Below, one piece after another: positions 3,512 through 35,055 of a stretch of DNA of 64,000 nucleotides. The position numbers and the translations under genes were made by a program. Below the pieces are notes generated by a model. It saw only the letters and a list, made by a program, of their open reading frames with translations. It was not told where the DNA came from and did no database searches. Every line of letters begins with the position of its first letter. Position 1 is the stretch's first letter. This stretch comes from Candidatus Sulfomarinibacteraceae bacterium (GTDB lineage Bacteria > Acidobacteriota > Thermoanaerobaculia > Thermoanaerobaculales > Sulfomarinibacteraceae): assembly GCA_963796455.1 (NCBI GenBank), contig CAWCLO010000010.1, forward strand, positions 608,001 through 672,000, written 5' to 3'.

Positions 3512-3533
3512 CGGCCCATTGTACGGGGGCGGA

Positions 3534-3600
3534 GGGGAAAGGGGGAAAGGGGGAAAGGGGGAAAGGGGGAAAGGGGGAAAGGGAGAGAGGGAGAGAGGGA
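3534..3600. repeat. Polypurine octamer tandem repeat (GGGGGAAA x5, then GGGAGAGA x2)
   Basis: Read directly; lies between divergent ruvX and lptD. Confidence 0.95.
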
Positions 3601-3694: not shown

Positions 3695-5827
3695 ATGAAC
3701 CACCGTCAGAACCCCATCACGAATGCCCGTTGCTGGGCTTTGCTCGTGGTAATGGTGCTGATGCTGCTGGCTGGTCGGGTCGCCGCCCAGGAGACCGAGG
3801 AGCGGGTCTTTCTTCGCGCCGACAATCAAAGCGCCACCGGCGAGACCTGGACCGGTGAAGGCAACGTGCACATTGTCTACCAGGATATCGAGATCCACTG
3901 CGATAAAGCGGAATACGACCGCTCCACCGGAGAGGTCGTCGTTCGCGGCAACGTCATCGTCGATCGCGGCCCGAGCCGCTTCACGGCCAATCTGGCTCAT
4001 TTCAATCTGGAGAGCAAGACCGGCGTTTTTTATGACGCATCGGCCTTTGTCGATCCGATGTACACCTTCAGCGGGCAAGAGATCGAAAAGATCGACGAAA
4101 CCCGATTCCGGCTCGAACGGGCCAGTTTCACCACCTGCGACATCGTCGACAAAAACCCTCCATGGAGCTTTCATTTCCGGAAGGCTCTGGTCAAAAAGGA
4201 GGGATTGGGACGATTCACCAGTACCGCGATGAAGATCCAGGGTGTGCCGGTTTTCTACATGCCGTACATGGTATGGCCGGTGAAACAGGAACGGGCGCTC
4301 GGTTTGCTCATGCCCCGCCTCGGCTACTCCAACCGGCGGGGCTTCAATATCGGTCTCCCTCTCTTTGTGCCTCTCGGTAGGAGTTATGACACGACGATCT
4401 TTGCCGACTACTACACCAAGGATTTCTTTGGTCTCGGAAACTCCTGGCGGTGGGCCCCGGTTGAAGGTGCCCGCGGCGAAATCGACCTCTACGGAGTTTG
4501 GGACCGTCCCAACGACGAGTTTCAGTGGCGGGTCCTGGGTTTTCACAAACAGGAGGACTTTCTCGGGTTTCAACTTCTGGCCCAGGTCGAGAATCTTTCG
4601 GACATCGATTTCTGGCAGGATTTCGACCGCACCTTCGACGCCACGACCCGCCGTGATCTTTATTCATTCCTTTACCTCACACGATCCTTCGGGCCCTATG
4701 CACTCAACCTCAGGGTCGACCACCGAAAGACCTTTCTGACCACCACCGATGTGGTGCTCAGCCAGATTCCCGAAGTCGAATTGCGGTCGGGCTCGACGGC
4801 GATCGCGGGCTCGCAGGTTTATCTCAATCTGATCGGTTCGCTCAACTATCTCTCCTCCGATCGTGGTGGTGACCTCAAAGGCCGCTATGGGAGAGCGGAC
4901 CTCTTTCCGACCGTGTCGTACACCTTGCCCGGGCCGACGTGGTTTTCAATCACACCCCGCCTTGGCGGCCGATTCACCTACTACACGGAACAGCTGACCG
5001 AAGACCGCAGATCCTTCGAAGATGATCCCCTCGGGCGCATCTATGCCACCGGGGCGGTGGACATCGTCGGCCCGTCGTTTTCAAGGGTTTTCGAAGGTGG
5101 CCTTGGAAGGTACGAAAAGGTCAAACACCTCATCGAGCCTCGGTTCGAGTATCGCTACCTCACGACCACCACCGATGTCAGCCGGATCCCGATCTTCGAC
5201 GAGGTCGATTCGACCCCGCGGGATGCCAATTTCATCCGGATGATTCTCGCCAACCGTCTCCTCGGCCGCTCCTCGGGCGGAGCCGGGACCCGAGAACTCG
5301 GATCGCTCGAGTTCAGCCAGGACTACTCCTTCGACCAGCCTCTCAATTTTGGCGAAGGCGGACAGACCAGCCGGCTTGGTCCCTTCGGGGCGTCCCTGCG
5401 GTTGACGCCGACCATGGGCACCGGCTTCGATGCCCGGGTCTTCTACGACCTCCTTACCAATAACTTCAGGTCGTTTTCTTTGGCCGCATCGGTACAGGAA
5501 CGCCTCGGCATGCTCAACCTGACCTGGTACGAGAGCTACAACCCGCGCAACGGGCAGCGCACTTCGTCCCAGGTGCGCAGTCTTATCGGTTTTCGCAAGG
5601 CCGGTTTCCCGCTCGACGTCACGGTGCAGCTCGCCTACGATATTGTCCGCTCCGAACTCGGAGACCAGCGCTACCGGATGGGGTGGCAGGGCAAGTGTTG
5701 GAACATCTCGGCTGAATACCGCGACACACGAATCGGCGCCTTTCCGACCCGCGAGTTTCTGATCGTGATCGGTCTCAAGGGCGTCGGTTCGTTGCCCGAG
5801 ATCAAGGGGAGCCTCGGCGGGTATTAG
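3695..5827 (+). CDS. lptD: LPS assembly outer-membrane protein LptD
   Basis: AGGAGG RBS; signal peptide; OstA-like N-domain; FTTCD..PPW; GVPVFYMPY; KHLIEPR; C-terminal barrel with KCW. Confidence 0.85.
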   Translation: MNHRQNPITNARCWALLVVMVLMLLAGRVAAQETEERVFLRADNQSATGETWTGEGNVHIVYQDIEIHCDKAEYDRSTGEVVVRGNVIVDRGPSRFTANLAHFNLESKTGVFYDASAFVDPMYTFSGQEIEKIDETRFRLERASFTTCDIVDKNPPWSFHFRKALVKKEGLGRFTSTAMKIQGVPVFYMPYMVWPVKQERALGLLMPRLGYSNRRGFNIGLPLFVPLGRSYDTTIFADYYTKDFFGLGNSWRWAPVEGARGEIDLYGVWDRPNDEFQWRVLGFHKQEDFLGFQLLAQVENLSDIDFWQDFDRTFDATTRRDLYSFLYLTRSFGPYALNLRVDHRKTFLTTTDVVLSQIPEVELRSGSTAIAGSQVYLNLIGSLNYLSSDRGGDLKGRYGRADLFPTVSYTLPGPTWFSITPRLGGRFTYYTEQLTEDRRSFEDDPLGRIYATGAVDIVGPSFSRVFEGGLGRYEKVKHLIEPRFEYRYLTTTTDVSRIPIFDEVDSTPRDANFIRMILANRLLGRSSGGAGTRELGSLEFSQDYSFDQPLNFGEGGQTSRLGPFGASLRLTPTMGTGFDARVFYDLLTNNFRSFSLAASVQERLGMLNLTWYESYNPRNGQRTSSQVRSLIGFRKAGFPLDVTVQLAYDIVRSELGDQRYRMGWQGKCWNISAEYRDTRIGAFPTREFLIVIGLKGVGSLPEIKGSLGGY

Positions 5828-5841
5828 GGCCCTTTGAGAAA

Positions 5842-5955
5842 GGGAGAAAGGGAGAAAGGGAGAAAGGGAGAAAGGGAGAAAGGGAGAAACCCGTGGCTCC
5901 TCGAATCTCGATGGCTCGTTCTCCCTTTCCCCCATGCGCCCCTTCACCCTTTCCT
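5842..5955. repeat. (GGGAGAAA)x6 array followed by a complementary pyrimidine tract
   Basis: Array at 5842-5889; TTCTCCCTTTCCCCC..CCCTTTCCT at 5919-5955. Confidence 0.85.
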
Positions 5956-13477: not shown

Positions 13478-13918
13478 CCTCTCGTGTCTGAAGTGCGAGT
13501 TTCGGACAGCGATCAGGGACAGCGTCAGCGGCGGCGTTCAGTCATCAGCGACAGACATCAGCGATCAGCGGCAGGGGCAGTGACAGCGAACAGCACTCAC
13601 TTCTTCGGGTTCAGCAGCCGCCAGGTCATGGCACGGACCTGATCGAAGGCGTTCATCGGCTACCCCTTCTGTTGAACGACCCGGAAGTGGCCTCGCCGTC
13701 ACTGCACCTGATCGCTGGCCCTGAACACTGATTGCTGCCCCCTGCCCCTGTTCGCTGTTGCCTGTCGCTGACGCTGGACACTGTCCCTGCCGCTGCAATT
13801 CGGGATCGGGAACGGGTACGTGCCAACCGCGAACCGGATATGCCAAAAACCAACCCGTAAACCTCGGGTTGTCAGGTGAGCGACGCCACGTGACGAGCTG
13901 TTTTGGACGGCAGCGATC
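13478..13918 (-). mobile_element. Internally deleted copy of the four-helix-bundle cassette at 34118-34977
   Basis: Reverse complement aligns to both flanks of the 34 kb cassette, including a 38-bp identical block; only the last 19 codons of the gene remain. Mobility is inferred. Confidence 0.75.
13597..13656 (-). pseudogene. C-terminal remnant of a four-helix-bundle gene (MNAFDQVRAMTWRLLNPKK*)
   Basis: Matches the C-terminus MNAFDQVRAMTWRLLNPKI* of the 34503-34856 product. Confidence 0.85.
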
Positions 13919-27868: not shown

Positions 27869-27982
27869 GAGTTCTGAGTTCTGGGCTCGGAATTCTGAAT
27901 TCCGCACACCATCCCGGAACTCGGGGTTGCCCTCTGGGAGCGGATAGAAATTCCGAACTCCGATCTCCGAACTCGAAATTCA
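27869..27982. repeat. Inverted heptamer arrays around a ~45-nt spacer
   Basis: Left GAGTTCT GAGTTCT GGGCTCG GAATTCT GAATTCC; right AAATTCC GAACTCC GATCTCC GAACTCG AAATTCA (roughly complementary). Confidence 0.8.
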
Positions 27983-28042
27983 AAAGTTGAGTCTCGCGCA
28001 ACGCACTGCTACCTTCTTCCTTCGCCCGGAGGAGATCTCTCT

Positions 28043-33308: not shown

Positions 33309-34117
33309 TGTCGGTTCTCTACAAGGTCGAGGGCGCGGGCAATGATTTTCTGCTCGGCATCGGCGACTGGTCGGATCGCCTGGCGGAAGAACCCGATCTG
33401 GTGCGGAGGCTGTGTCACCGCCGACTGGGGATCGGCGCCGACGGTGTGGTCGCGCTCGAACCGGAAGGGCGAGAGTCGGTGCGAATCGTCTATCGCAACG
33501 CGGACGGCGGAGTCGGTGCTTTTTGCGCGAACGCAACTCGATGCGCGGCAAGGGTCGCTGTCGAGATACTCGGTGGCGCGTCCCGTTTGACGGTTGTGAC
33601 CGGGTGGGCGGAAATTGCGGCTGAAGTCAACGGGTCCGAGGTCGCTCTCGAGCTGCCGGAGCCCGGTTCCCTCCCCATCCAGCCGGCCATCGCACCCGTC
33701 CCCGGCATCGGATCACCCAGCCTTTTGCGGCTTGGGGTGCCCCACCTCGTTGCCCCGGTGACCGGGCTCGATGATCTCGATATTCGAACGATCGGGCCGC
33801 ACTGGCGGTTTCATGAATCGCTGGGTCCCGATGGCGCCAACGTCAATTTCTATGAAGCCGAGGACGATGGTGCGATCGCTCTTCGCACCTGGGAGCGCGG
33901 TGTCGAGAACGAAACCTTGAGTTGTGGCTCGGGGATGGTCTCCGTTGCGTTGATCGTGATGGCCGAGCAGGGTCTCGACGAGTTGGTCCTCAAACCGGCT
34001 TCGGGTGATCGCCTGCGGGTGGATGCTCTCGGGGACCCGCCGAATTGTCGGACCCGGCTCACCGGGCCGACGAGGATTGTCGCGAAGGTCGATCCGGTGG
34101 CGGACCTGTTCGGATAA
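33308..34117 (+). CDS. dapF: Diaminopimelate epimerase
   Basis: KVEGAGNDF, GIGADG, NADG..FCANATRC, RTWERGVENETLSCGSG. Confidence 0.94.
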   Translation: MSVLYKVEGAGNDFLLGIGDWSDRLAEEPDLVRRLCHRRLGIGADGVVALEPEGRESVRIVYRNADGGVGAFCANATRCAARVAVEILGGASRLTVVTGWAEIAAEVNGSEVALELPEPGSLPIQPAIAPVPGIGSPSLLRLGVPHLVAPVTGLDDLDIRTIGPHWRFHESLGPDGANVNFYEAEDDGAIALRTWERGVENETLSCGSGMVSVALIVMAEQGLDELVLKPASGDRLRVDALGDPPNCRTRLTGPTRIVAKVDPVADLFG

Positions 34118-34977
34118 AGATCACTGCTGTCCAAAACAGAACGTCACCTGAAACTTCCCACCTGACAACAAGTGTTTTACGGGTTGGTTTTTGGCATATC
34201 CGGTTCGCGGTTGCCCCGTGTCCGCGTCCGTGTCCGTGCCCGAATTGCAGCGGCAGCGACAGTGTCCAGGGTGCAGGGACAGCGACAGGAGGCAGCGTCA
34301 GCGGCAGGGATCAGCGAACAGGGAGCAGCGACAGGGAACAGCGGTCAGGAGTCCAGTCGGCGAAATGGCCACCTCCGGGTCGTTCAAAAGAAGGGGTAGC
34401 CGGTGGGCGGCCGATGTCAAGGACAGGCCGGGTGCAGGGCATCCTTGACATCGGCCGCCACACCGGCTTGCGGGTAAGGGCATGAACGACCCGGAGGTGA
34501 CCATGTCCAACACCGCCACGAACACCAACCTCGTTGCCCACTCGAAAGCCCTCGAAGCAGCAGGAATCGCGATCAAACTCGTGATGAGAGTTCCAGCTCC
34601 GCTGAAGTCGATAGCCGATCAGGTGATCCGGTCGGCAAGTTCGGTCCCTGCGAAGCTGGCAGAAGGGCACGGCCGAGTTGGTAGAGACCGGTCGAATCAC
34701 TGGAGAATCGCCTACGCCTCGGCGAAAGAGGTCGACAGCCACTTGCAGCTCCTCGCCCACGCCGGGGCGATCAGCCCGAACGGAGCCAGTGAAGCGATGA
34801 ACGCCTTCGATCAGGTCCGTGCCATGACATGGCGGCTGTTGAATCCGAAAATTTGAGCGCTGTTACCCGTCGCTGCTGTTGAGAGCTGATCGCTGACCCT
34901 GACAATCGTTCGCTGACGCTGTCCGCCGTTCCCCGGCCCCGGTCGCTGTCAGAGACTCTGTCTTGGACAAGAGTGGA
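34118..34977 (+). mobile_element. Four-helix-bundle cassette bounded by nested inverted repeats (putative mobile or intervening element, no transposase)
   Basis: Imperfect terminal IRs 34128-34140/34957-34969; CAG-rich and CTG-rich arms; inner hairpins; homologous deleted copy at 13478-13918. Confidence 0.65.
34503..34856 (+). CDS. Four-helix bundle protein (23S rRNA IVP-like family)
   Basis: 117 aa; GGAGG RBS; DQVIRSASSVPAKLAEG..RIAYASAKEVDSHL resembles the family motif QxxRxxxSxxxNIAEG..A.GS..E. Confidence 0.85.
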   Translation: MSNTATNTNLVAHSKALEAAGIAIKLVMRVPAPLKSIADQVIRSASSVPAKLAEGHGRVGRDRSNHWRIAYASAKEVDSHLQLLAHAGAISPNGASEAMNAFDQVRAMTWRLLNPKI

Positions 34978-35055
34978 TAAAGAAACAGAGTGAAAAGTTC
35001 AGGGTTCAGACAGGAATTGAGGCTCTACCCTAGAGCCTGAGTCCTCCACCGGCGA

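What the first reader, a model, noticed from the sequence alone, without database searches (positions are those of the whole stretch)
34118..34977. Four-helix-bundle gene packaged in nested inverted repeats: candidate undescribed mobile or RNA-structured element
Seen, from outside in: imperfect terminal IRs TGTCCAAAACAGA (34128-34140) / TCTGTCTTGGACA (34957-34969, 12/13 match); a 38-bp conserved block; a CAG-repeat arm (~34248-34350) loosely complementary to a CTG-repeat arm (~34858-34950); a 140-nt double hairpin; then the 117-aa gene. It sits between convergent dapF and pgpA. I found no transposase, integrase or reverse transcriptase in the window. Known: this protein family was found in 23S rRNA intervening sequences, which are looped out by paired flanks, and is structurally related to the DGR accessory protein Avd; its function is unknown. 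Inference: a self-pairing cassette that spreads as a unit, whose protein may bind its own RNA or DNA. This is my best candidate for a novel system here.
Basis: partly seen in the sequence, partly recalled or inferred. Interest (0 to 1): 0.82.

Follow-up and report, generated by a model that had tools for sequence, protein, structure and literature searches.

The report
IS4-ended cassette carrying IVS-type gene
This is one of about sixty gene-bearing copies in this genome of a small cassette that has the ends of an IS4-type jumping gene but no transposase, and it was likely moved by a transposase supplied from elsewhere; its little gene of unknown function has stayed intact in nearly all copies even though gene-less versions multiplied just as much.

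Summary
Observation confirmed and extended. The element spans 34122-34975 (854 bp), with 18-bp terminal inverted repeats and a 9-bp target duplication. The genome holds 62 near-complete gene-bearing copies and 67-71 copies of one gene-less derivative; the family covers about 2% of the genome. Its ends match an IS4-family insertion sequence: a full one in a same-genus genome has an end identical to ours, and 33 of 117 public loci with the end motif encode that transposase. This genome has no such transposase and no reverse transcriptase (90.5% complete). dapF-pgpA lacks the cassette in 19 of 19 informative relatives. Relatives carry the same hairpin-plus-gene core between ISL3 ends. So it is a mobile insertion cassette likely moved in trans, and the protein is not needed for a copy to move. 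Unexplained: the gene is under purifying selection across copies (dN/dS 0.155; 3 stops where 14-36 were expected), and 19 of 26 unrelated family genes also have inverted repeat arms. This scan found the same element and arm packaging before, in this genome and others; I found no paper describing it.

The parts
34113..34121 (.). Left target-site duplication GATAAAGAT (contains the dapF stop codon, 34115-34117)
34122..34139 (+). Left terminal inverted repeat; identical (18/18) to the right end of the full IS4 element in L016
34140..34215 (+). Subterminal region, with patchy likeness to the right-end subterminal DNA of the cognate IS4; includes the 38-bp block 34176-34213
34218..34241 (+). Short degenerate hexamer array, variable between copies
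34248..34350 (+). Left repeat arm of 6-8-nt CAG-initiated units
34362..34386 (+). 5' arm of the outer stem; complementary to the Shine-Dalgarno and start-codon region
34397..34468 (+). Inner hairpin; stem shows compensatory changes among relatives, TTGACA-containing core nearly invariant on both arms
34483..34507 (+). 3' arm of the outer stem, holding GGAGGTGA (34493-34500) and the ATG at 34503
34503..34856 (+). 117-aa four-helix-bundle gene, PF05635/TIGR02436 (in-frame upstream ATG at 34482 would give 124 aa); this copy alone of 62 has Lys for the conserved motif Asn
34858..34950 (+). Right repeat arm of CTG units, loosely complementary to the left arm
34958..34975 (-). Right terminal inverted repeat; same type as the left end of the cognate IS4
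34976..34984 (.). Right target-site duplication GATAAAGAA (8/9)
13480..13915 (-). Second family member in the window: most of the gene and hairpin deleted, right end degenerate (lower coordinate approximate)

Best explanation
The 854-bp segment has IS4-type ends, a 9-bp target duplication and no transposase, and it is likely a mobile insertion cassette that an IS4 transposase supplied in trans cut out and pasted at new sites. Shown: ends, duplication, copy number, matching autonomous IS4 elements, site lacking it in relatives. Its cargo is likely an older unit, a four-helix-bundle gene between inverted short-repeat arms (the layout of ORF-bearing 23S rRNA intervening sequences), captured first by ISL3 ends and once by IS4 ends in this genus (inferred; tree not rooted). 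The protein is not needed for a copy to move (gene-less subfamily). A stem is predicted to bury its ribosome-binding site in read-through transcripts, so it is likely made at a low level. My preferred reading of the selection on it (about 0.3, untested): an Avd-like basic pentamer that binds the folded-back transcript of its own locus and limits the damage the long hairpin does to neighbouring genes, so that each gene-bearing copy must keep a working gene.
For: 62 copies with at least 95 codons aligned; 255 TIR hits, 71 pairs under 1 kb. At the 18 paired sites not in heptamer arrays, 9 bp is the only length from 2 to 16 clearly above control (identity 0.67 vs 0.29). L016 (same genus) is a 1411-bp IS4 with DUF4372 + DDE_Tnp_1 and a YREK motif, with one end identical to ours. 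33 of 117 public loci with the end motif encode that transposase, and several full elements have perfect 9-bp duplications. Ends CA------T, 8-10-bp duplication and size fit subgroup IS4Sa in Table 1 of PMC2266710 (passages). dapF-pgpA lacks this cassette in 19 of 19 relatives where both genes lie in the locus (24 examined). Same core between GGCTCATCCGG ends, which flank an ISL3 transposase in L227; 16 IS4-ended cores form one group, 100/99. Gene-less subfamily has 67-71 copies with shared junctions, 9 of 26 paired ones with perfect duplications. dN/dS 0.155 over 59 ORFs; model matches Xcc0516 (TM 0.81-0.84) and Avd (TM 0.79); K+R 14, D+E 8.
Against: No cognate transposase in this genome (90.5% complete), so the mover is inferred from other genomes. 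L016 itself has no matching duplication. 14 of 33 gene-bearing copies with both ends have 3 or more duplication mismatches. Targeting is stronger than expected: heptamer arrays are 0.09% of the genome yet 53 of 71 paired sites have array-like flanks (a loose 5-mer test), while the cognate IS4 elsewhere shows only a weak A...T preference (14 sites). A plain passenger model does not predict selection on about 60 redundant genes. No G-U excess on the sense strand of the hairpin, so an RNA role is not shown. No convincing -10 box follows either TTGACA.
Confidence: 0.72

Rival explanations
1. The arm-gene-arm core is a mobile element in its own right with an unknown mechanism that uses the four-helix-bundle protein; IS4 and ISL3 ends are later wrappers that amplified one such element.
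For: 4 of 4 unrelated TIGR02436 genes in this genome and 19 of 26 across the phylum (control 95th percentile) have inverted short-repeat arms, each with its own unit. The Coxiella IVS has heptamer repeats and terminal complementarity (PMC4990558, section 16 and passages). One core occurs in two unrelated end systems. This rival is partly compatible with the best explanation.
Against: In this genome most gene-bearing copies keep an IS4 end (55 of 62 with at least one), and the other 7 look eroded rather than cleanly inserted. Gene-less copies multiplied equally. No catalytic role is known for the fold (own knowledge). I did not look systematically for transposon ends around the 26 phylum genes.
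Confidence: 0.2
2. The protein benefits the host or the whole element family in trans (dosage), or only a few copies are selected and gene conversion among copies keeps the rest in repair.
For: Linkage between variant sites falls with distance (r2 0.23 under 15 nt to 0.02 beyond 60 nt); star-like tree, 20% internal length; unusual symmetric and inverted derivatives show recombination within elements.
Against: Third codon positions are not homogenised (pairwise 0.205, like the non-coding subterminal block at 0.18). Redundancy of about 60 copies should weaken per-copy selection. A star tree alone gives low long-range r2.
Confidence: 0.3
3. Addiction or type-I-toxin-like module: a translationally blocked harmful protein held off by the stem or an antisense RNA.
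For: Strong Shine-Dalgarno predicted to be buried (unpaired probability 0.15 with the 5' arm, 0.47-0.53 without); TTGACA on both inner arms could start opposed transcripts.
Against: Coxiella S23p did not slow E. coli growth (PMC4990558 section 16); many copies lost the gene while keeping the 5' arm; soluble helical bundle, not a membrane peptide.
Confidence: 0.07
4. Retrotransposition: an Avd-like protein with a reverse transcriptase copies the element through RNA.
For: Structural likeness to Avd; left ends are lost more often than right ends (97 vs 156 TIR hits; 38 vs 50 of 62).
Against: No RVT_1 match in the genome. Fixed 9-bp duplication and DDE-type ends. Left-eroded copies carry no duplication at the break (best 2-4 mismatches of 9 in 16 of 17 testable; the one exception has a near-complete end).
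Confidence: 0.03

Closest known systems
Mobile insertion cassettes (MIC231 of Bacillus cereus, moved in trans by IS231A; definition read in passages of PMC3913671)
   Same: IS4-family ends, target duplication, a passenger gene in place of the transposase.
   Different: Ends fit IS4Sa rather than IS231; about 60 gene-bearing copies per genome; passenger of unknown function with a predicted buried ribosome-binding site; same cargo also in ISL3 ends; movement not shown experimentally.
IS4 family, subgroup IS4Sa (PMC2266710, passages)
   Same: CA------T ends, 9-bp duplication; cognate autonomous elements of 1.29-1.63 kb with a DDE/YREK transposase.
   Different: This element encodes no transposase; subgroup assigned by ends and size only.
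ORF-bearing 23S rRNA intervening sequences (Coxiella S23p; PMC4990558, passages and section 16)
   Same: Same protein family; ORF looped out by complementary flanks; short tandem repeats beside the ORF; poor predicted translation.
   Different: Not in rRNA; RNase III excision untested; strong but buried Shine-Dalgarno rather than a weak one; ORF under purifying selection rather than decaying; dispersed multi-copy.
Avd of diversity-generating retroelements (PDB 4DWL, 8UB7)
   Same: Same fold (TM about 0.8), net basic.
   Different: 8-9% identity; no reverse transcriptase found in the genome; template and variable repeats not searched.
Bacterial MITEs
   Same: The gene-less 430-460-bp subfamily is a MITE by ends, duplication and copy number.
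   Different: The parent form carries a conserved ORF.

Membership tests
PF05635 / TIGR02436 four-helix-bundle protein | HMM score above curated cut-off | tested here: met
   52.7 vs 33.8 bits; 54 vs 24 bits
[quoted passage not shown]
   pLDDT 90.8 for the best of five models (others 50-65); 2GSC TM 0.81-0.84
PF05635 / TIGR02436 four-helix-bundle protein | Homopentamer | not tested
   Known for Xcc0516 (stated in PMC4990558 passage); no complex was predicted
Mobile insertion cassette (IS4-derived) | Terminal inverted repeats shared with an autonomous IS | tested here: met
   18/18 with L016; 33 of 117 loci with the motif encode the transposase
Mobile insertion cassette (IS4-derived) | Target duplication of the family's length | tested here: met
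   9 bp
Mobile insertion cassette (IS4-derived) | Passenger gene, no transposase inside | tested here: met
Mobile insertion cassette (IS4-derived) | Cognate transposase in the same genome | tested here: inconclusive
   Not found in G000, 90.5% complete; present in same-genus G017
Mobile insertion cassette (IS4-derived) | Mobilisation in trans shown | not testable with these tools
   needs a transposition assay
IS4Sa subgroup | End signature CA------T and 8-10-bp duplication | tested here: met
   Table 1 of PMC2266710
IS4Sa subgroup | Transposase clusters with IS4Sa references | not tested
   no reference set on hand
23S rRNA intervening sequence | Located inside an rRNA gene | tested here: not met
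   Lies between dapF and pgpA; no rRNA family match; spacing of two 23S motifs in this genome leaves no room for a 400-nt insert (expected spacing recalled from E. coli)
23S rRNA intervening sequence | Excised by RNase III | not testable with these tools
   needs RNA data or an in vitro assay
Diversity-generating retroelement | Reverse transcriptase partner | tested here: not met
   No PF00078 match in G000, 90.5% complete

The most novel reading that the evidence does not exclude
Four-helix-bundle (IVS/Avd-type) genes define a widespread class of selfish cassettes, each wrapped in its own inverted short-repeat arms. The protein acts in cis on its own folded transcript or DNA, so every copy must keep a working gene. 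Here two unrelated transposon families picked one such cassette up and amplified it to dozens of copies, giving a natural mutational scan of the protein and a route by which rRNA intervening sequences and bacterial heptamer repeats spread.
Probability: 0.25. Interest if true: 0.85.

Novelty: new variant of a known kind. Interest (0 to 1): 0.6.

Why it matters
The origin of ORF-bearing rRNA intervening sequences has been put down, without proof, to transposition or to an ORF needed for mobility (discussion of PMC4990558). Here the same gene family rides on identifiable transposon ends with clear target duplications, which makes the transposition idea testable, while the gene-less subfamily argues against the ORF being needed to move. 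About 60 dispersed copies under purifying selection give an unusual handle on a protein family of unknown function. The mobility mechanism itself is ordinary, and this scan has reported the element before, which limits the surprise.

Tried and rejected
Rfam: only a chance mir-138 hit, E 0.97. The genome's one DDE_Tnp_1 transposase has different ends. Six Y1_Tnp matches; three of the four fetched loci were checked and show no element ends; a HUH role for the REP-like insert was not pursued. No ISL3 transposase in G000. LINE-like truncation rejected. Arm co-evolution within copies rejected (61 of 62 copies, p=0.77). Strand of folding unresolved: the commonest non-canonical pairs are C-A on the sense strand and are inherited, not independent (73 of 76 rows). 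The contrast between private (omega 0.51) and shared (0.11) variants first looked like decay after insertion, but simulations give this contrast under uniform selection through saturation, so I do not use it; branch-wise dN/dS was not obtained. Close homologues (E<=1e-15) were not found with this query in 150 other genomes of the phylum. Sequencing runs: no RNA holder listed; no reads laid. No complex prediction was run. Literature: nine searches listed no paper on a transposon-borne TIGR02436 cassette or on repeat arms around this family; subscription journals are mostly not covered and no supplements were read. Ralph and McClelland 1993 was not held.

Full report
Observation. The region folds back on itself far better than shuffles (z -9.3 and -10.2). 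The ORF is PF05635/TIGR02436, and its predicted structure matches Xcc0516 (TM 0.81-0.84), BT_0352 and, more distantly, Avd. The flanking genes are dapF and pgpA.

It is a high-copy element. The genome (5.02 Mb, 90.5% complete) gave 73 TIGR02436 matches, four of them unrelated to this element. 62 copies align over at least 95 codons. A scan for the 18-bp ends gave 255 hits and 74 pairs, 71 under 1 kb. The family touches 223 loci and 102 kb, 2.0% of the genome. Among 30 full paired copies the nearest neighbour is 98% identical for one pair and 85-90% for most, so most insertions are old. 22 of 24 same-genus genomes have DNA matches. Record titles of loci with 86-88% identical proteins name Ca. 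Sulfomarinibacteraceae.

Ends and target. The true ends are 34122 and 34975. A 9-bp duplication flanks them: 38 of 71 pairs have at most one mismatch. At the 18 sites outside heptamer arrays, where 2 and 9 bp cannot be confused, 9 bp stands out (0.67 against 0.29). Here the duplicated 9 bp include the dapF stop codon, so dapF stays whole. In 19 of 24 relatives the fetched locus holds both dapF and pgpA, with gaps of -8 to 609 bp, and none has this cassette; three hold gene-less relics with similar repeat arms. Elements lie in convergent gaps more often than background (26 of 71 against 738 of 3661, crude gene calls).

The mover. The one DDE_Tnp_1 gene of this genome has other ends, and there is no RVT_1 match. 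A same-genus genome holds a 1411-bp IS4 element whose right end is identical to our left end over 18 bp; its transposase has DUF4372, DDE_Tnp_1 and a YREK motif. Ends, duplication and size fit IS4Sa (PMC2266710, passages). This transposase has no match in our genome. An IS-ended passenger gene moved in trans is the definition of a mobile insertion cassette (PMC3913671, passages).

The cargo is separable from the ends. Five of nine relative loci carry the same hairpin and gene beside GGCTCATCCGG-type ends, with an 8-bp duplication in the one locus where it was detected. The same ends flank an ISL3 transposase in L227. In a 24-row tree the 16 IS4-ended genes (10 of the 62 from this genome) form one group, 100/99, unrooted. 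All four unrelated family genes in this genome sit between inverted arrays of 6-8-nt units, each different. Across the phylum 19 of 26 family genes exceed the 95th percentile of 150 shifted controls for flank complementarity (4 of 30 loci left out: two at contig ends, one below cut-off, one from an unpublished genome). The Coxiella IVS also has heptamer repeats before its ORF (PMC4990558, section 16). I infer that the CAG/CTG arms are this cassette's native arms and the IS4 ends a later wrapper.

The protein is not needed in cis to move. 41 of the 71 paired elements are short. One subfamily replaces the inner hairpin and gene with a small palindrome; its two junctions occur 71 and 67 times, and 9 of 26 paired members have perfect duplications. 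A half-gene junction occurs 9 times. Left-eroded copies have no duplication at the break, which argues against LINE-like insertion.

Yet the gene is conserved. 59 of 62 ORFs run 112-121 codons (one stops four codons early); mean pairwise dS is 0.32, dN 0.050. Pairwise differences at codon positions 1, 2 and 3 are 0.054, 0.041 and 0.205, against 0.18 for a non-coding subterminal block in 40 copies. 90 alignments (8485 codons) hold 3 internal stops, against about 36 at 5% neutral decay, or 14 at 2% (scaled from the same formula). Ends differ from the commonest form by about 8%, and only 8 of 33 duplications are perfect, so several percent of decay since insertion is likely. These yardsticks are rough, because arrays slip and functional ends vary. 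Against my first reading, the private-versus-shared contrast is a saturation artefact. Short-range linkage between variants suggests copies recombine, which leaves repair by conversion open. The window's copy is the only one of 62 with Lys at the motif Asn (motif from PMC3936711, passage) and may be impaired.

The hairpin. The outer stem pairs with GGAGGTGA and the ATG at 34503; predicted unpaired probability is 0.15 with the 5' arm and 0.47-0.53 without. The inner stem shows changes on both sides among relatives around a nearly fixed TTGACA core. Pairs are almost all Watson-Crick with no G-U excess on the sense strand, so a DNA palindrome explains them as well as RNA does. Arms do not co-evolve within copies. 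Seven of 71 elements have inverted rather than direct array flanks, and a few have duplicated or flipped interiors.

Verdict. Mobility is best explained by an IS4 transposase in trans (0.72 for the whole account, higher for mobility alone). The protein's role is open; I favour a cis-acting nucleic-acid-binding pentamer (about 0.3). It is not a 23S IVS (location) nor part of a DGR (no reverse transcriptase found). Papers: passages of PMC2266710, PMC3936711, PMC10053308, PMC8700078, PMC6542083 and PMC3913671; passages and section 16 of PMC4990558; others as search listings only; no supplements. Nine searches listed no description of this cassette. Earlier AI notes of this scan describe the same element and packaging; they are not independent evidence. 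Novelty: new variant of a known kind; interest 0.6.

Noticed in passing
window ~13480-13915 (-): Second family member with most of the gene and hairpin deleted and a small palindromic insert at its degenerate right end.
   Followed up: partly
G000:C1:2036-2810, C1:620189-621148, C1:819462-820397, C4:791232-792266 and similar: A second multi-copy family (about 30 copies, 600-1000 bp) with no obvious gene, built of nested 8-9-nt repeats and palindromes around a conserved core.
   Followed up: no
G000:C1:453898-454365: A 121-aa ORF with a GxxExxY-like motif (label recalled, not scanned) between inverted 8-nt arrays, the same packaging as the four-helix-bundle genes.
   Followed up: no
genome-wide; window 3525-3596, 5826-5954, 9564, 27900-28000, 34990-35040, 46400, 49632: Many short tandem arrays of 6-8-nt units, often as inverted pairs; 69 of 149 GCATCCA-type arrays have an element end within 45 nt.
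   Followed up: partly
L016:1343-2777; L227:936-2262: The autonomous IS4 and ISL3 elements of G017 also sit in or beside short tandem arrays, so array association is not special to the cassette.
   Followed up: partly
L001:1200-2740: Single-copy 353-aa DDE transposase with 21-bp inverted ends, between two direct repeats of about 30 bp in a region of cassette-like genes.
   Followed up: no
G000:C4:24629-25160, C5:1326-2036, C4:114700-115252: Elements with the same IS4 ends but a different interior holding a long palindrome and no four-helix-bundle gene.
   Followed up: no
G000:C1:1289269-1290162: A heptamer run lies in frame inside a serine/threonine kinase-like ORF.
   Followed up: no
G000:C6:37094-38933, C7:279899-281563: Repeated ORF pieces resembling IS91-type transposases (by eye, not scanned); six Y1_Tnp matches elsewhere.
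   Followed up: no
L152, L155, L160, L161 (dapF-pgpA gap): Several relatives share a different palindromic insert in the same gap, which appears to be a hot spot.
   Followed up: no
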